A stretch of DNA of 64,000 nucleotides from the NCBI GenBank assembly GCA_963843145.1, contig CAWJJC010000027.1, positions 64,001 to 128,000 on the forward strand, read 5' to 3'. A program made the translations under genes and the position numbers. This stretch comes from an uncultured delta proteobacterium. Its GTDB lineage: Bacteria; Desulfobacterota; RBG-13-43-22. The notes below the pieces were generated by a model. The model did not search any database, had not been told where the DNA came from, and saw only the letters and a program-made list of their open reading frames with translations. Below, piece after piece: positions 9,582 through 16,967 of this stretch; position 1 is the stretch's first letter; each line of letters opens with the position of its first letter.

Positions 9582-9803
9582 ATGAAAGAAAAGGTCCAGG
9601 AAGCGCTGAATAAAGTCCGGCCGCAGTTACAGGCCGATGGCGGAGACGTGGAATTGGTGGAGGTCACCGAGGGGGGCCTGGTAAAGGTGCGATTAACCGG
9701 GGCCTGCAAGGGTTGCCCCATGTCCCAAATGACCCTGAAAATGGGGATTGAGAAATTCTTAAGACAGCAGGTCCCGGAAGTGACGGTGGTGGAGGCGGTC
9801 TGA
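9582..9803 (+). CDS. NifU C-terminal-domain (Nfu-type) Fe-S carrier
   Basis: [14 protein letters not shown]...[11 protein letters not shown]. Start taken at ATG 9582. Confidence 0.92.
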
Positions 9804-9856
9804 AGGCCGGAGGAAGTGTTTCCACGCGCCGGTGACCTGCCCCCCCCTCCCACCTC

Positions 9857-10807
9857 TCAATTATTGAAAATCAGTGGATACCAGATGGTATAGAGGCATT
9901 TGAAGTAACCGCTCCAGTCAATCGTATCGGCGTCGACGGCCTTTACCAGTTTAATCGCCAAATCCTTGGTGTCGGGGCGGATACGGAGTATGAATTCACT
10001 CATCCCGATCGGATTGGCGGGGTTTCCCCAATCATAGGTGTACCCCAACCGGGTCCACGGGTCTCCCCAGCCGCTCGGGTCTTCACCCTCGCGATGGTAG
10101 ATGGTCTCGGCCCGATCCATAAACCATTGTTTGAAGGTTTTCGGGGGCAGCCAGGAGGCCTCCAAAAAAAGCGCGGTGTCGTTGATTTGGATAAAAGGAT
10201 TGCCGTCCTGGGGAAAGGTCCAGTTTCCTGGCCCAATTTGTCTGGCCAGCATGGCTTCATGGTCGTTGGCTTCGGGGTCCGGACTGGGTCGAAAGAGATC
10301 GGAAGGGGAGACCCACATTTCCAGAAAGACATCGAAAGGATAGGCCGGGTTAAGGCCCATCAATTGGCGGACCCGTTCTTTGGTGGGGGGACAGGTTTGC
10401 CCCATGAAAAAATTTTTAAGCTCCGGGACGACGGTGACCCAGAGGCTTTTGGTCAGATGATATTCCGGATCGTTCAGGTGGGAGGCGTAGTAATTCTGGT
10501 AGCTGGCCCGGGACATAAAGGCGCCCACCAGGATACGGGATTGTCCTGGCACGCCTTCCCAAACGATTTCCCCGCCGTGTAACCGTTCATGATTGATCGG
10601 GTCCCAACTTGGAAGAACGGCCAGGAGCTTCGTGCTGATTTTATCCTGGCTGGCGGTTTCCGTTGCCGCCAGAGCGTCGTAATAAGCCTTTTTATCGGCC
10701 GGGGAGACTTCCAGGCCCCAGACCGGTGTGAGAAGAATCCCCGTCAGCCAAAAAAAGAAGCCCAAGAGGAGCATTCCTCTTGAACTACACTTAAAGCGGG
10801 TCGCCAT
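9857..10807 (-). CDS. Exported hypothetical protein ending in a YLP-like motif
   Basis: Signal peptide, GAGG RBS, PWTRLGYTYDWG block, C-terminus YTIWYPLIFNN. Confidence 0.75.
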   Translation of the reverse strand: MATRFKCSSRGMLLLGFFFWLTGILLTPVWGLEVSPADKKAYYDALAATETASQDKISTKLLAVLPSWDPINHERLHGGEIVWEGVPGQSRILVGAFMSRASYQNYYASHLNDPEYHLTKSLWVTVVPELKNFFMGQTCPPTKERVRQLMGLNPAYPFDVFLEMWVSPSDLFRPSPDPEANDHEAMLARQIGPGNWTFPQDGNPFIQINDTALFLEASWLPPKTFKQWFMDRAETIYHREGEDPSGWGDPWTRLGYTYDWGNPANPIGMSEFILRIRPDTKDLAIKLVKAVDADTIDWSGYFKCLYTIWYPLIFNN

Positions 10808-10976
10808 ATCCTTTTCCTCCTAGAAGATCCCGAACTGGTTTTTCTGCCTGATAGTATATCGGCAGAAAGGGCTTGAGGTTTAGAAACCGCTCCTGAGGGG
10901 CAAGGCCACGATTCAAAGGGCAAAAAATGGAGAAAGAAACGGCCATATCTGGTCTAATTCTCAACTTTTTTTCTTC

Positions 10977-11006
10977 TTGACCCTCGTTTCCTTCTCATTA
11001 TATGAT
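10977..11006 (+). promoter_or_regulatory. Possible sigma70 promoter of the dndC-SBD-HNH gene
   Basis: TTGACC-18 nt-TATGAT in an AT-rich region about 70 nt before the start. Confidence 0.35.
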
Positions 11007-11064
11007 TCCACAGAAAAATGAAATATTTATCAAAAACGCTTTTCATCTCCATAAGTAGAATGGG

Positions 11065-13287
11065 TTGCTAAAACTTATGACTTATAGAGATATCAGAGAT
11101 TTCCTAAGCCAGCTTTACTTGGAGGACGACCGTCCGTGGCTGGTGGGGTTCAGTGGCGGCAAGGACAGTACCATGCTTGCATCACTGGTGTTTAACGCCG
11201 TCCTATCCGTCCCTGATGGGCAACGAAAAAAACCAGTATCCGTTCTCTGCACCAACACGGGCGTAGAAATCCCGGCAATTGTTGAAATGGTCGAAGGCAC
11301 GTTGGCGCGGATGCGCAAGTTTTCTCAACAGAACGACCTTAATATCCAGGTCAACCTTCTTAAGCCGCCGCCCGAACAATCATTTTGGGTGAACGTCATC
11401 GGTCGTGGTTACCCGCCACCTAACCGGACCTTCCGCTGGTGCACGCAGCGCCTGAAGATTGACCCTGTCAACGTCTTCATGAACCAGCGGCTCGGTCATT
11501 GGGGGGAAGCAATCCTGCACCTGGGTGCCCGTCGGGCAGAAAGTACCACCCGGGCACAAACGATGGCAGGTCGCCAAACCCGCAAAGGCCTTATTCGTCA
11601 CCCCGACCTGCCGCGCGTCTGGGTGTCCAACCCAATCGAATTCCTTACCACTGAGGAAGTATGGGCATACCTATTACAGAAATCCACCCCTTGGGGAAAC
11701 GATAATCGATCACTTTATAAGCTCTACAACAATGCCTCCAACGGGGAATGTCCTATACAGATTGATACCAGCACCCCGGCCTGCGGTCACTCCCGCTTCG
11801 GCTGTTGGACCTGCACCGTCGTTGACCGCGACAAAGCCAGCGAAGGCCTGCTCGCCGCTGGCGATGAACGGATGGAGCACTTGATTGAGTTTCGCGAAAC
11901 ACTCCTTGAATTCCGTAACCCCGATAATGGTTGGCGCGACATCCGGCGAATGAATGGGAATGATGGCCCCGGCCCACTTCGCATCAAAGGTCGTCGGGAA
12001 TTATTAAAACGCCTGCTTTACCTCCAGGAAAAAACGGGTTTGAAACTCATCACGCCGGAAGAACTCCTTCTTATTCAACAATTTTGGAAAGCAGCCCGAG
12101 ATCCCGATGATGGTCGGGGCGTTGCCCGCATTGTTAATAAACAAAGAGGTGTTGTCATGAACACGGACCTCAAAGAACTGAATCGGCTTCGTGAAATGGA
12201 AGAGGAAGTAACAAGAATGCTGTGTGTCCGCGCGGATACTTTACGCCGCATGCTTGCCAAGGTGGAAGAATACAGCGAAAGCCACCGTGCCCATGGACTG
12301 CCGGATGATCTTCTCAATATTTTAAAAGATGATCTTTATATAAATGCCGCTCAGGAAATAAATTCTCCTCACATTAACCCGATGGTCAACGACCAAGAGT
12401 ACTGGTTACATAAACTCGCAACGTTACGGATTGACCGTGCGCGGGGAAATCCGGCGCCCCACAAGCCACTTCTCCTGCTGGTCATTATCGAGATGGCAGA
12501 GAAGGGCGAGATCCAGAGCCGTGAAATTACTCTCTCTCCTGATTTTGCTTTCAGGTTCACTATGTATTGGTCTGTTGTAGCCCATCGTCGCAAGCAGCCA
12601 CCCGAAGTGCGGCTCCCTTTTCACCACCTTGGATCATCTGGAATATGGCAACCCTTCACGGCAGAAGGAAAACCTTCGCCAGATAAAAAATTGACCACAA
12701 TGATTAGACTTAACCCAGCATTCTTCGATTGTCTTGCTGATCAGAAATTTCGTGATCAAGCGCGAAGAGTACTGATTGAAACGGAACCATATTTCTTGCC
12801 TGAAGAAAGAGCAGCACTATACGGCGTGCTTAAGATCAAACCGACTGCACCCGAAATTCATGAAAACCAAGAATTGTACAAAAAAAGCGTTCAAAAGGGG
12901 CGCGACGCTCGCTTTCGAATTGAGGTGGTTCTCGCCTACAAACACACCTGTGGCCTTACAGGTTATAGGATGACCACTCTTGAGATGGAGAGCATTGTGG
13001 ATGCGGCGCATATTCAAGAGTTTCGTGACTCCAGCAACAATGATCCCCGCAACGGGATAGCACTTTCAAAGAATGCGCACTGGCAGTTTGATCGAGGTCT
13101 TTGGTCGTTGAACGATGATTACCGTGTTCTCGTGAACAGAGAAAAGTTTATCGAAGACGGAGTGCCGGGACAACGACTTGCAGATTTTGAGGGGAGAAGG
13201 ATTTTTTTACCAAGCGATCCAAAGTATTGGCCAGAGCACACTTATCTAGATTGGCATCGCAAGCGGCACGGTTTCCCACCAAGGTGA
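11065..13287 (+). CDS. dndC: DndC-type DNA phosphorothioation sulfurtransferase fused to an SBD sulfur-binding domain and an HNH endonuclease
   Basis: N-terminal part: WLVGFSGGKDS, NTGVE, GRGYPPP, FRWCTQRLKIDP, GARRAES, GECP, CGHSRFGCWTCTVV (DndC). C-terminal part: APHKPLLLL...PFHHL (SBD), then RFRIEVVLAY..CGLTG..DAAHI..RNGIAL..AHWQFDRG (HNH_2). Likely start is ATG 11077. Confidence 0.88.
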   Translation: MLKLMTYRDIRDFLSQLYLEDDRPWLVGFSGGKDSTMLASLVFNAVLSVPDGQRKKPVSVLCTNTGVEIPAIVEMVEGTLARMRKFSQQNDLNIQVNLLKPPPEQSFWVNVIGRGYPPPNRTFRWCTQRLKIDPVNVFMNQRLGHWGEAILHLGARRAESTTRAQTMAGRQTRKGLIRHPDLPRVWVSNPIEFLTTEEVWAYLLQKSTPWGNDNRSLYKLYNNASNGECPIQIDTSTPACGHSRFGCWTCTVVDRDKASEGLLAAGDERMEHLIEFRETLLEFRNPDNGWRDIRRMNGNDGPGPLRIKGRRELLKRLLYLQEKTGLKLITPEELLLIQQFWKAARDPDDGRGVARIVNKQRGVVMNTDLKELNRLREMEEEVTRMLCVRADTLRRMLAKVEEYSESHRAHGLPDDLLNILKDDLYINAAQEINSPHINPMVNDQEYWLHKLATLRIDRARGNPAPHKPLLLLVIIEMAEKGEIQSREITLSPDFAFRFTMYWSVVAHRRKQPPEVRLPFHHLGSSGIWQPFTAEGKPSPDKKLTTMIRLNPAFFDCLADQKFRDQARRVLIETEPYFLPEERAALYGVLKIKPTAPEIHENQELYKKSVQKGRDARFRIEVVLAYKHTCGLTGYRMTTLEMESIVDAAHIQEFRDSSNNDPRNGIALSKNAHWQFDRGLWSLNDDYRVLVNREKFIEDGVPGQRLADFEGRRIFLPSDPKYWPEHTYLDWHRKRHGFPPR

Positions 13288-13317
13288 TAGTTAATTCAAT
13301 CCCCCTGTAACCCTCTG

Positions 13318-14470
13318 TTACGGCGTGAATTCGCGGTCCCAGAGGGCATCGAGGAAAAGGCGGTAGGGGAGTATTCGGACTGCCCCCACCTGCCGCGGTC
13401 GATTCTCCAGACTGACACAGAGAAAAGCGCTTAAGGTTTTTCTCTTCCGCTAGGGCGTTCAGAGATTTAAGGTCCTGAATGGTTACGGTTTTCTTGGCTT
13501 TGATTTCTATGGCGGTGTGATCGCCCAGGATGAAATCGACCTCGAATCCTGAGTTGGAACGCCAATAGTTGACCGGCTCACCGGAGAGATAGTCCCGGTA
13601 ACTCAGCAGCTCATGAAGAATCCAGGTCTCAAAGGCAAGCCCGAACTCGGGTGTGCCTGGTTTGACCAAGCGGCCCTGTAAGGCTGAAGCTACGCCGACA
13701 TCGAAGAAATAGTACTTGGAAGACGTCAGTGGCTTACGTTTGTGGGAATGGCGCCAAGCCGGGACTTCGTGCAGGAGCAGGGTATCCTTTAATATTTCGA
13801 AATACTCATAGACCGTGGTGCGGGGTACTTGGGCATCATTGGAAACATTGGTGTAGTTGACGACCGTCGCATTACACAGAGCGGCTACGTGCAGGAATCG
13901 GCTGAAGGCGGGAACGTTTCGAGTCGCCCCTTCCGCAACGATTTCCTGTTGCAGATAGGTGCCGGTATACGCGTCCAGATCCGCTTGGGGATCGTCGGAG
14001 AAATAGACCGAAGGCAGTAAACCTCGGGCAATGGCCTTTCCCAGATCGAAACGCGTCCCCAATTCCCGATAGGTCAAGGGATGCAGGTATCGGGTACGAG
14101 CGCGACCACCGAGCAGGTTAACGCCACCTCGCCTCAATTTACGGGCACTGGAGCCTGTTAACAGAAATCGAATCCGTCGTTTCTCGATAAGGCGGTGGAC
14201 GGCGTGGAGAAGGTCAGGAAGAGGATGGACTTCTCAATAACCACTACCTTATTTTCTGGTGACAGTTGCTCTTCCAGAAGACCGGGATTTCGACTGAGGG
14301 CCAGGTAAACGGAACTATCGAGTAGATCGTACAATTGGATCCCGGAAAACAACCGGTGAATCAGGAAGGTCTTGCCGGTCTGACGTGGTCCGAAAAGAAA
14401 ATGTGATTTCGTTCCCATCCAGCCGACAAGGTCAGGAAGACGATTGATGGCCGGCGGCTCGTGGCCCTTT
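13318..14470 (-). pseudogene. AAA+ ATPase (AAA_14/DUF4143 family), two frameshifts
   Basis: GPRQTGKT Walker A, TGSSARKL, LLGGRA, KYYFFDVG, EVDFI..AIEIK. A base is missing in the Walker B codons (~14235) and there is an extra base at ~13423. The corrected frame ends LDALWDREFTP* at 13318. Start uncertain. Confidence 0.8.
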
Positions 14471-14571
14471 TTCAGGTTGTGACGCTTTATCGTCAAATAG
14501 TATGTCAAATGACGAAACCGTCGTCAATAAAAAACATCCAGGGGGACTGTTCAGGACTTTGGGCAAGTTGT

Positions 14572-15042
14572 TCACCGGTGATACTTCTCGCCGGCCTGAA
14601 CGGTCAGGTAGCGGTAGAGCTGTTCGCTGAAGAGCAGGGCGCTCATCTCATGGGTCAGGGTCAGGGAAGAAAGGGAAAGTACGTGATGGGCCTGGGTCAA
14701 CACCTGCGGGGAAAGGCCCAATGGGCCCCCAATACAAAAAAAGGCTTTTTTGATTCCCTGGCGCCCCAAATCGGTCAGAAAATCGAACCACTGTTCCGAG
14801 GCCAACGACTTTCCTCGTTGGTCTAAAGCCACCCGGTAGCCGTCGTCGGGGATTTTATCCAGTATCCTATCTCCCTCTTTCTGCCTGATCAAGGTCTCGT
14901 TGCAGCCGGTGCTGATTTTCTCTTCCTTAACCGGGATGACTGAAAATTCGGTGTAGCGGGTAATGCGCCGTCGGTAGAGGTCCATTCCCTCTACAATAAA
15001 AGGCGCCTTGATTTTTCCCACGGTGACCAGAATATACTTCAT
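14572..15042 (-). CDS. rlmH: 23S rRNA m3-pseudouridine1915 methyltransferase RlmH
   Basis: MKYILVTVGK, LDQRGK, FCIGGPLG, SLSSLTLTHEM, EQLYR, YHR. Start taken at ATG 15042. Confidence 0.93.
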   Translation of the reverse strand: MKYILVTVGKIKAPFIVEGMDLYRRRITRYTEFSVIPVKEEKISTGCNETLIRQKEGDRILDKIPDDGYRVALDQRGKSLASEQWFDFLTDLGRQGIKKAFFCIGGPLGLSPQVLTQAHHVLSLSSLTLTHEMSALLFSEQLYRYLTVQAGEKYHR

Positions 15043-16650: not shown

Positions 16651-16967
16651 AAAGGCTCCTTTAAGTAGAACATTAAGTATTAATAATTAACAATTGATTA
16701 TTAATTATTAAGTTTGTGTTTAGGACAAAGCTGAAGGACTCACAAAAAGTCGATCAGATCAAGTTTTTCATTCTGAGCGATAGCTAAGGAGCAATTTTTA
16801 TCAGCTACTTGAGATATCTTTCATGGATTTTACCCTAAATATTCAGGTTTCGTTGGTCTTCGCCAGGGGTCTGGGCGTTTAGTCGAGATTATTTTTTTTT
16901 ATGATATTAGGGGCAAATAGGGTAGGGTGTCAAATTAAAATAAAAATACCGGGGATTATAAAGGATT

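What the first reader, a model, noticed from the sequence alone, without database searches (positions are those of the whole stretch)
11065..13287. Single-gene fusion of a phosphorothioation writer (DndC) with a PT reader-nuclease (SBD-HNH)
Seen: one uninterrupted 740-codon ORF. About the first 425 aa carry the DndC motifs (PP-loop SGGKDS, GYPPP, RWCT.RLKI.P, GECP, SRFGCWTC). About the last 300 aa carry an SBD signature (APHKPLLLL...PFHHL) and an HNH_2 domain with H-N-H intact (AAHI/RNG/AHW). Established: DndC is the Fe-S, adenylating subunit of DNA phosphorothioation, and SBD-HNH enzymes (ScoMcrA/SprMcrA type) recognise and cut PT DNA, so the two activities are normally antagonistic. Inference: this may be an undescribed one-component defence system. 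It could tag and cut invading DNA, act as an abortive-infection switch, or use SBD binding to self PT marks to restrain the nuclease.
Basis: partly seen in the sequence, partly recalled or inferred. Interest (0 to 1): 0.92.

Follow-up and report, generated by a model that had tools for sequence, protein, structure and literature searches.

The report
One-off fusion of dndC and SBD-HNH
The 740-codon gene is real in this assembly, but it is a one-off frameshift join of two neighbouring genes, a DNA-sulfur writer and a sulfur-reading nuclease, which are separate genes in every clean relative examined.

Summary
The ORF at 11065-13287 is open. Its N-half is a bona fide DndC and its C-half is an SBD-HNH nuclease, with catalytic and sulfur-pocket residues intact.

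The single-chain form looks unique. dndC ends at a stop before the SBD-HNH start in 14 of 14 intact genome loci and 43 of 44 metagenome junctions. The exception, L119, is riddled with frameshifts. Two searches of billions of proteins found no protein spanning both halves.

The ancestral stop (TAA 12375-12377) and the usual stop + 4 nt + ATG geometry are still present, out of frame. A net 1-nt loss (equivalently +2) a few bases upstream made the join. A same-genus genome keeps a 61-nt scar of the cassette with the stop in frame. No read covers the junction, so I cannot separate a real mutation from an assembly error.

What is conserved is a two-gene, apparently translationally coupled dndC/SBD-HNH cassette spread across many phyla. 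Ten of 10 carrier genomes searched lack a DndE match and any full-length or above-cut-off DndD match. SBD-type HNH nucleases beside dnd genes are already in print. The DndD/E-less two-gene cassette was not found in the papers I searched.

The "one-component system" reading is not supported.

The parts
10889..11076 (+). Upstream region specific to the cassette. It is absent from the same-genus genome G006 and holds a sigma-70-like site at 10977-11006.
   Evidence: G006's left flank stops matching at 10888. The promoter-like hexamers TTGACC-18-TATGAT match 10 of 12 positions. This is a consensus match only.
11077..12372 (+). DndC part: PP-loop ATP pyrophosphatase / Fe-S sulfurtransferase of DNA phosphorothioation. 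Residues 5-436 of the ORF; probable start ATG 11077.
   Evidence: TIGR03183 scores 364.3 bits against a cut-off of 290.4. It is 81-92% identical to at least 120 stand-alone DndC proteins of 411-452 aa, whose C-terminal His aligns with residue 436. The PP-loop and conserved cysteines are invariant in alignment A3.
12364..12384 (+). Junction. A net -1 (equivalently +2) frameshift in the last codons of dndC. The ancestral stop TAA at 12375-12377 is now out of frame, followed by 4 nt and the SBD-HNH start ATG at 12382.
   Evidence: Sequence read. Single-gap alignments to relatives show the window 1 nt shorter there. Relatives have stop + 4 nt + ATG. The G006 scar keeps the His codon and TAA in frame.
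12382..12870 (+). Sulfur-binding domain (SBD, a winged-helix fold). Residues 440 to about 602. Pocket residues are H466, K467, L517, P518 and H521.
   Evidence: phmmer to 8H0L gives E = 6e-7. The pocket residues of SBDHga named in PMC10602919 align to identical residues here. Foldseek's top hits are the SBDs of Hga, SprMcrA and ScoMcrA. H466, K467 and P518 are invariant in 42 homologs. The domain's end coordinate is approximate.
12949..13287 (+). HNH_2 nuclease domain (residues 629-683) plus the C-terminal tail and stop. Catalytic residues are H649, N663 and H672.
   Evidence: Pfam PF13391 scores 38.5 bits against a cut-off of 21. H210, N224 and H233 of alignment A2 are invariant in 42 sequences.
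13318..14567 (-). Neighbouring DUF4143 ATPase gene, broken by two 1-nt indels near 13427 and 14233. It is not part of the cassette but belongs to the same variable island.
   Evidence: G006 has one intact 392-codon frame at 94% nucleotide identity. The window's copy is split, and its tail runs antisense into the HNH gene.
9857..10807 (-). 316-aa ORF with no Pfam family. It is an island gene shared with G006 but absent at this site in G005.

Best explanation
The 740-codon ORF is a lineage-specific, frameshift-born join of two adjacent genes. It is not a conserved single-chain architecture.

SHOWN:
- In relatives, dndC ends with His-stop, and 4 nt later the SBD-HNH gene starts in another frame.
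- In the window that TAA and the 4-nt spacer are still present, but a net 1-nt loss a few bases upstream puts dndC into the SBD-HNH frame. The added linker is only Ile-Asn-Pro.
- The cassette sits in a variable island. One same-genus genome has only a 61-nt scar of it, another has nothing there, and the neighbouring gene is frameshifted.
- SBD-HNH orthologs survive without the clade dndC in many genomes.

INFERRED:
- The unit that matters is the two-gene cassette. DndC, fed by a cysteine desulfurase (an adjacent DndA in many relatives, a housekeeping IscS/NifS-like enzyme here), adenylates and thiolates the DNA backbone.
- The SBD-HNH protein binds phosphorothioate (PT) in its hydrophobic pocket and cuts nearby with its HNH site, as shown for EcoWI-type enzymes.
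- Because solo SBD-HNH orthologs persist, the nuclease is probably harmless without PT. That fits a PT-dependent cutter, not a cutter of unmarked DNA.
- The paired writer must therefore mark DNA in a way its partner tolerates. My preferred reading (about 40%) is that the sequence contexts of writer and reader do not overlap, so the pair protects its own marks and excludes foreign PT systems and PT-modified phage.
- Other readings: self-marks restrain or tune the nuclease (about 25%); mark-and-cut or abortive infection (about 15%); the reduced cassette is inert (about 20%).
- If the fused protein is made, it most likely behaves like the two proteins held together by a variable tether of about 15 residues.
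For: Fusion unique:
- 14 of 14 intact adjacent pairs in genome contigs have a stop between the genes.
- Of 44 metagenome junctions, 43 are split. The one read-through (L119) has several frameshifts in both genes.
- A junction-spanning query (residues 395-600) against 5.8 billion protein clusters returned only stand-alone DndC of 411-447 aa, each covering 15-21% of the query region.
- None of the best 150 representatives of 1.84 billion proteins spans both halves. The 10 longest carry no HNH domain.

Origin:
- Junction anatomy.
- The G006 scar keeps the dndC stop in frame.
- The cassette was not found in 3 of 3 same-genus genomes. Among 17 same-family genomes, 16 have nothing and 1 has only an SBD-HNH fragment.

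Both halves intact:
-.
- The DndC half has 3 deviations at columns conserved in at least 97% of sequences, against a median of 1. Of 164 relatives, 27 have at least 3.

Cassette:
- Nucleotide homology to relatives begins at about 11076 and ends at about 13298, that is, exactly the two genes.
- No DndD hit that is full-length or above the cut-off, and no DndE hit, in 10 of 10 carrier genomes. Positive controls are.
- Solo and paired SBD-HNH sequences are interspersed on a quick tree.
Against: - No read or contig covers the junction, so an assembly error is not excluded. In that case there is no fusion at all.
- The frame is open over all 740 codons and no conserved residue is lost, so a selected, functional fusion is also not excluded.
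- The indel is not in a homopolymer. Housekeeping genes nearby show no interior frameshifts against G006, which argues against a generally error-prone assembly.
- Which way the writer and reader are coupled is inference only.
- The same DndC clade also occurs with a DndD-like ATPase in place of SBD-HNH (G177 and G136). DndC may therefore need an ATPase partner that this genome lacks.
- NF045808, the curated PT-DNA restriction endonuclease model, scores 109.6 bits, below its cut-off of 180.
Confidence: 0.8

Rival explanations
1. Assembly or sequencing error. The organism really has two genes, and a miscalled single base near 12371 removed the frame difference.
For: - The change is a net 1-nt indel, the commonest kind of assembly error.
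- All clean relatives are split.
- Three frameshifting 1-nt indels lie within 2.2 kb of this island, at about 12371, 13427 and 14233. Low or mixed coverage of a strain-variable island could produce that pattern.
- Contamination is 6.9%.
Against: - None of the three sites is a homopolymer.
- The threonine synthase, cytochrome and 316-aa genes show no interior indels against G006 at 94-96% identity.
- Clustering inside a dispensable island equally fits real decay.
Confidence: 0.3
2. A selected single-chain defence protein. Tethering writer and reader gives a new function: tag-and-cut of invading DNA, an abortive-infection switch, or self-restraint through the SBD.
For: - The frame is open with all motifs intact.
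- The partners are already co-expressed from one coupled operon.
- DndC does tolerate fusion to operon neighbours elsewhere: DndC-DndD, DndC-DndB and rhodanese-DndC.
Against: - No second clean example was found.
- The join is 3 residues made by a frameshift, with the old stop still in place.
- The island is decaying: a broken neighbour here and a scar in the sister genome.
Confidence: 0.08
3. A dead remnant. Without DndD/DndE-type partners the DndC half writes nothing, and the fused ORF is a pseudogene in the making.
For: - No DndE and no DndD-like gene in the genome.
- The same DndC clade is found with a DndD-like gene plus an ATPase in G177 and G136, and with a DndE-AAA protein in L003, L005, L006, L015 and L043.
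- dndC is damaged while SBD-HNH stays open in 7 genome loci.
- The neighbouring gene is broken.
Against: - At least 9 other genomes carry the reduced pair with both genes open. Amino-acid identity is about 85% while nucleotide identity is only 76-81%, which suggests continued purifying selection.
- A single DndC-like enzyme, TdpC, is reported to suffice for PT synthesis (statement in PMC12914056).
- There is no excess of changes at conserved DndC positions.
Confidence: 0.2

Closest known systems
EcoWI-type SBD-HNH phosphorothioate-dependent restriction endonucleases (PMC7461809)
   Same: Two-domain architecture: an N-terminal sulfur-binding winged helix plus a C-terminal HNH, about 300 aa. The sulfur-pocket His-Lys and Leu-Pro-x-x-His residues and the HNH triad are conserved.
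   Different: - It scores below the curated NF045808 cut-off (109.6 against 180).
- It lies directly after, and is apparently translationally coupled to, a dndC gene. That paper found dnd genes near fewer than 3.6% of such enzymes.
- In this window it is fused to DndC.
Dnd-locus wHTH(SBD)+SAD(SRA)+HNH nucleases described by comparative genomics (PMC10853773)
   Same: A PT-reading HNH nuclease encoded immediately downstream of Dnd modification genes and proposed as their restriction partner.
   Different: - No SRA/SAD domain was detected.
- Their survey is anchored on the DndD/CxC-DndE core, which is missing from 10 of 10 carrier genomes searched here.
TdpABC (An et al. 2025, Nat Chem Biol). 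Known here only through the citing text in PMC12914056; the paper itself is not held.
   Same: A compact PT system in which one DndC-like enzyme is said to suffice for PT synthesis.
   Different: No TdpC sequence was available, so relatedness is untested. From recall, not from any call, the Tdp restriction partners are TdpA/TdpB, not an SBD-HNH protein.
PT-sensing nucleases SspE and DndI (PMC11662687)
   Same: HNH-type nucleases that read the PT marks laid by a cognate writer. They show that writer and reader-nuclease can coexist.
   Different: They use a DUF262 NTPase sensor rather than an SBD. DndI is toxic to cells lacking PT, whereas SBD-HNH orthologs here persist without the clade dndC.
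Other DndC fusions in public protein sets
   Same: DndC joined to an operon neighbour: DndC-DndD (P0212), DndC-DndB (P0259, P0294) and rhodanese-DndC (P0255).
   Different: None carries an HNH or SBD domain. Whether those fusions recur was not examined.

Membership tests
DndC (TIGR03183) | HMM score above the curated cut-off over the full model | tested here: met
   364.3 bits against 290.4, model positions 6-446 of 447.
DndC (TIGR03183) | PP-loop SGGKDS and conserved cysteines | tested here: met
   SGGKDS lies at residues 30-35. Cysteines C122, C225, C236, C243 and C246 of A3 are invariant in 33 sequences. Which of them bind the Fe-S cluster is recalled, not tested.
Canonical dndBCDE modification operon | DndD ABC-ATPase and DndE in the genome | tested here: not met
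   In G000 the best DndD hit is 19.7 bits and there is no PF08870 hit. The pipeline does find DndD-like and DndE where they are present; DndE was detected in 3 of 5 control genomes.
Canonical dndBCDE modification operon | Cysteine desulfurase (DndA/IscS) available | tested here: inconclusive
   G000 has three IscS/NifS-like genes scoring 324-369 bits, none above the DndA cut-off of 480 and none adjacent. A DndA-like gene lies near the pair in many relatives.
SBD-HNH PT-dependent restriction endonuclease | Sulfur-binding domain with hydrophobic pocket residues | tested here: met
   8H0L at E = 6e-7. Pocket residues H25, K26, L75, P76 and H79 of SBDHga (PMC10602919) align to H466, K467, L517, P518 and H521. 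Foldseek E = 1e-5, TM-score normalised by target 0.64-0.67.
SBD-HNH PT-dependent restriction endonuclease | Intact HNH catalytic motif | tested here: met
   PF13391 scores 38.5 bits against 21. The His, Asn and His residues are invariant in 42 homologs.
SBD-HNH PT-dependent restriction endonuclease | NCBIfam NF045808 curated cut-off | tested here: not met
   109.6 bits against 180, full-length match 3-280 of 284.
SBD-HNH PT-dependent restriction endonuclease | Cleavage depends on PT in DNA | not testable with these tools
   Needs enzyme assays on PT and non-PT substrates.
ScoMcrA-type SBD-SRA-HNH | SRA/SAD domain between the SBD and the HNH | tested here: not met
   No SRA family in the Pfam scan. 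The C-half is only about 300 aa.
Conserved single-chain DndC-SBD-HNH architecture | The same in-frame fusion in independent genomes | tested here: not met
   0 of 14 genome junctions are fused. 0 clean cases among 44 metagenome junctions. No spanning protein.
TdpABC | DndC-like TdpC orthology | not tested
   The paper is not held and no TdpC sequence was available.

The most novel reading that the evidence does not exclude
The dndC/SBD-HNH pair is a self-contained, hypercompact phosphorothioate system that works without DndD/DndE. One enzyme writes PT and its coupled partner reads and cuts it. The natural fusion in this genome shows that the two can act as one polypeptide, that is, as a physical complex.
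Probability: 0.15. Interest if true: 0.75.

Novelty: new variant of a known kind. Interest (0 to 1): 0.38.

Why it matters
As a fusion it matters little. It is a single-base accident, or an assembly error, seen cleanly only once.

The cassette behind it is the more useful lead. A very conserved DndC clade (81-92% identical in at least 120 protein clusters from several phyla) is coupled to a PT-reading HNH nuclease. In 10 of 10 carrier genomes searched it lacks the DndD/DndE core that current surveys use to find dnd systems.

It poses a testable question: how do a PT writer and a nuclease of the PT-dependent type coexist in one operon? It also offers a small two-gene construct, and a natural single-gene version, with which to test whether DndC alone can thiolate DNA.

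Tried and rejected
- **L002-L005 misread as fusions.** I first took them for in-frame fusions because tblastn gave one full-length HSP. ORF maps and junction DNA showed an in-frame stop followed at once by ATG, so I rejected that.
- **Apparent DndC-tail remnants.** One search suggested such remnants upstream of solo SBD-HNH genes (L023, L025, L028, L038, L044). Translation upstream shows stops and no DndC motif, so they are spurious.
- **"This DndC clade never occurs without SBD-HNH."** I considered this and rejected it. G177 and G136 have the clade DndC (71-76% identity) followed by a DndD-like gene and an ATPase instead.
- **The "solo" label on the tree.** For the Planctomycetota rows it is too simple. 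There the SBD-HNH gene lies beside DndB, DndA and a distant DndC (39% identity). L023 has a DndA fragment next to it.
- **Reads.** The look-up of sequencing runs found no run holding half of the sampled words; the best shares were 0.24, 0.20 and 0.17. Read laying on X1-X4 placed only short contigs and none covers 12308-12391, so there is no verdict on the junction.
- **Complex prediction** (DndC alignment A3 against SBD-HNH alignment A2) returned no answer, score 0.00. That is neither support nor evidence against binding.
- **Tree.** The careful tree search did not finish in 300 s, so only the quick tree was used. One row, L041, was dropped for an internal stop.
- **Rfam** gathering scan of the whole window: 0 matches.
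- **Flanking repeats.** A repeat search over 9700-14700 found nothing that flanks the cassette.
- **Papers.** Searches found no paper in the held library describing a DndC-SBD-HNH fusion or a DndD/E-less dndC/SBD-HNH cassette. Supplementary Data S1 of PMC10853773 and Table S4 of PMC7461809 may list such loci, and I could not see them. The TdpABC paper is not held.
Full report

Window 11065-13287 (+) is one open frame of 740 codons.
- The N-half is a DndC. TIGR03183 scores 364.3 bits against a curated cut-off of 290.4 over residues 15-422. PADLOC DndC scores 402 bits. Pfam PAPS_reduct covers 27-251.
- The C-half carries Pfam HNH_2 (629-683, 38.5 bits against 21). It also makes a full-length but sub-threshold match to NCBIfam NF045808, "phosphorothioated DNA-binding restriction endonuclease" (109.6 bits against 180).
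- Residues 450-537 match the solved sulfur-binding domain of Hga (8H0L, E = 6e-7).
- An AlphaFold model of the C-half (mean pLDDT 75) finds the SBDs of Hga, SprMcrA and ScoMcrA, and the HNH enzymes TagI and ScoMcrA, as its best PDB matches.
- Relatives begin at the Met encoded at 11077, so the real start is probably there.

**The single-chain form is not found elsewhere**

- A whole-protein search of 5.8 billion protein clusters gave, as its best 120 hits, only stand-alone DndC proteins of 411-452 aa. They are 81-92% identical over the first 55-59% of the query. In the eight-sequence alignment their C-terminal His aligns with residue 436.
- A second search used only residues 395-600, which span the join, and was restricted to proteins of 407-1295 aa. 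A true fusion would have topped that list. The best hits were again stand-alone DndC of 411-447 aa, covering 15-21% of the region (489 hits among 1087 candidates).
- An exhaustive HMMER pass over 1.84 billion representatives gave 6797 hits. In the best 150, each protein's best-matching stretch lies in the DndC half or in the SBD-HNH half, never across both.
- The 10 longest of those (573-1248 aa) have no HNH domain. They are DndC-DndD, DndC-DndB and rhodanese-DndC fusions or N-terminally extended DndC.

At the DNA level, the search for related loci returned 59 genome loci.
- Fourteen hold an intact dndC directly followed by an intact SBD-HNH gene: L002-L011, L016, L020, L042 and L045. In L016 dndC is cut by the contig end.
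- In all 14 a stop codon ends dndC.
- Four of them (L002-L005) share one frame with the stop in between. That first misled me, because tblastn gave a single HSP.

Among the best 80 of 181 metagenome loci:
- 43 junctions are split.
- 27 have SBD-HNH with at least 300 nt upstream and no dndC tail.
- 8 lie at contig edges.
- 1 is irregular.
- 1 (L119) reads through. That contig has several other frameshifts in both genes, so it is not a clean second case.

**How the join arose**

In 33 of the 43 split metagenome junctions, the SBD-HNH match starts 7 nt after the first base of the stop. That is stop + 4 nt + ATG.

The window keeps exactly this geometry: CAT-TAA at 12372-12377, four bases, then ATG at 12382. 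Here, however, the TAA is out of frame. Single-gap alignments to several relatives show the window one base shorter in the codon before that His. Other alignments describe the same net shift as two extra bases. The result is a three-residue bridge (Ile-Asn-Pro) between the last DndC residue and the first Met of the nuclease.

**The sister genome gives the polarity**

The cassette was not found in 3 of 3 same-genus genomes. Sixteen of 17 same-family genomes gave no match, and the other, G021, has only an SBD-HNH fragment.

Synteny was compared:
- G005 goes straight from window 9811 to 14477.
- G007 has a different insert of about 11 kb at this site.
- G006 has flanks 94-96% identical. Between window 10888 and 13318 it has only about 90 nt. 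Of these, 61 nt match window 12370-12430 at 87%.
- That scar still reads Thr-His-TAA, then the spacer and a mutated start.

So the common ancestor had two genes with the stop in frame. G006 then lost both genes by deletion, and the G000 lineage (or its assembly) acquired the frameshift.

**Real mutation or error?**

I could not decide this.
- No public run holds half of the sampled words.
- The contigs that could be laid leave 12308-12391 uncovered.
- The adjacent DUF4143 ATPase gene carries two further 1-nt frameshifts relative to G006's intact 392-codon frame.
- The threonine synthase, cytochrome and 316-aa genes nearby have no interior indels.
- None of the three indel sites is a homopolymer.

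This pattern fits real decay of a dispensable island somewhat better than random error. My odds are about 60:40 for a real mutation.

**The cassette**

- Nucleotide similarity to relatives starts at about 11076 and ends at about 13298, that is, at the borders of the two genes.
- Nucleotide identity is 76-81% while protein identity is about 85%. The genes have therefore diverged under purifying selection rather than moved very recently.
- The carriers are labelled Thermodesulfobacteriota/"delta proteobacteria", Verrucomicrobiota, Armatimonadota, Binatia, Acidobacteriota and others.
- A DndA-like cysteine desulfurase lies downstream on the other strand in 22 loci.
- A DndE-AAA fusion protein and a DndB-like protein occur in a minority of loci: L003, L005, L006, L015, L042 and L043.
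- In L012, L013 and L015 another gene sits between the pair: an AAA_23 ATPase, a NERD nuclease and a TIR protein respectively.

Whole-genome searches covered G000 and nine other carriers.
- No DndE was found.
- No DndD hit was above the cut-off or full-length. The best is a 41-bit N-terminal piece in G003.
- The pipeline does detect these families where they exist. DndE was found in 3 of 5 control genomes and DndD-like in 2 of 2.
- G000 has three IscS/NifS-like genes elsewhere in the genome.

**Against a simple picture**

- In a sample of 400 genomes from the same phylum, the clade DndC also occurs in G177 and G136. There it is followed by a DndD-like ATPase (168-190 bits) and a further ATPase, with no SBD-HNH.
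- A distant branch of the SBD-HNH family lies inside canonical dndA/dndB/dndC clusters in Planctomycetota.
- So SBD-HNH takes the place of DndD in one operon type. DndC may need an ATPase partner that the reduced cassette lacks.

**Both halves look intact**

- H466, K467 and P518 of the sulfur pocket and H649, N663 and H672 of the HNH site are invariant in 42 homologs.
- The five pocket residues named for SBDHga (PMC10602919, passages) are identical in the window's protein by the alignment.
- The PP-loop and five cysteines are invariant in 33 DndC sequences.
- The window's DndC has 3 deviations at columns conserved in at least 97% of sequences, against a median of 1. Of 164 relatives, 27 have at least 3.

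**How it probably works (inference)**

- SBD-HNH orthologs of 62-83% identity stay open without the clade dndC in many loci.
- dndC is truncated, interrupted or frameshifted beside an open SBD-HNH in seven genome loci: L017, L018, L019, L029, L040, L031 and L034.
- Paired and unpaired forms are interspersed on a quick tree.
- A nuclease that survives loss of its writer is not one that needs self-marks to spare the host. DndI, by contrast, does need them (PMC11662687, passages).
- It fits a PT-dependent cutter of the EcoWI kind, which blocks entry of matching dnd plasmids (PMC7461809, passages).
- The coupled writer must then mark DNA in a way its partner tolerates.
- I favour non-overlapping sequence contexts, the option raised in PMC7461809. 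Self-mark restraint, the option raised in PMC10853773, is the main alternative. Mark-and-cut and an inert remnant are lesser ones.
- A complex prediction gave no answer and is not used.

**Comparison with what is known, and verdict**

- PT-reading HNH nucleases next to dnd genes are in print: 698 taxa in PMC10853773, and fewer than 3.6% of SBD-HNH homologs in PMC7461809.
- Those nucleases carry an SRA domain and sit beside a DndD/DndE core. This one has neither.
- A single DndC-like writer, TdpC, is reported to suffice in the Tdp system (text of PMC12914056). I could not test relatedness to it.
- My searches of the held library found no description of a DndC-SBD-HNH fusion or of this reduced cassette.

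The fusion is a one-off and should be scored low. The cassette is a modestly new variant of a known kind and a convenient test bed.

Noticed in passing
window 16671-16711: An AT-rich, near-palindromic element of about 40 nt, downstream of the threonine synthase gene. It recurs at 88-100% identity at dozens of places in each of the three same-genus genomes. It has no Rfam match. It could be a dispersed repeat or a binding site.
   Followed up: partly
window 9812-14476: A variable island between the cytochrome c gene cluster and rlmH. It is absent in G005, replaced by a different insert of about 11 kb in G007, and reduced in G006.
   Followed up: partly
window 13318-14567 (-): A DUF4143 ATPase gene broken by two 1-nt indels relative to an intact 392-codon ortholog in G006. 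Its shifted tail runs antisense into the end of the HNH gene, which produced spurious antisense matches.
   Followed up: yes
L015 7358-8113; L013 3425-4318; L012 7280-8440: In three relatives another gene is inserted between dndC and SBD-HNH: a CAP12/Pycsar-type TIR protein, a NERD nuclease, and an AAA_23 (DndD/SMC-head-like) ATPase.
   Followed up: no
P0212, P0259, P0294, P0255 (public proteins): Other DndC fusions exist: DndC-DndD (1248 aa), DndC-DndB (668 and 591 aa) and rhodanese-DndC (578 aa).
   Followed up: no
L003 (contig labelled Klebsiella pneumoniae MAG): Its SBD-HNH is sister to that of a Binatia MAG (L004) on the quick tree, within a clade of environmental MAG sequences. The species label of this 6.9-kb contig looks doubtful.
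   Followed up: no
L010 3650-4735 and 5961-8423: Downstream of the pair in an Armatimonadota MAG lie an AIR-synthase-related (PurM/SelD-like) protein and an 820-aa HD + N6_N4 DNA methylase protein.
   Followed up: no
window 12001-13000: The SBD-HNH half has lower G+C (48%) than the DndC half (52%) and the window as a whole (53%).
   Followed up: no
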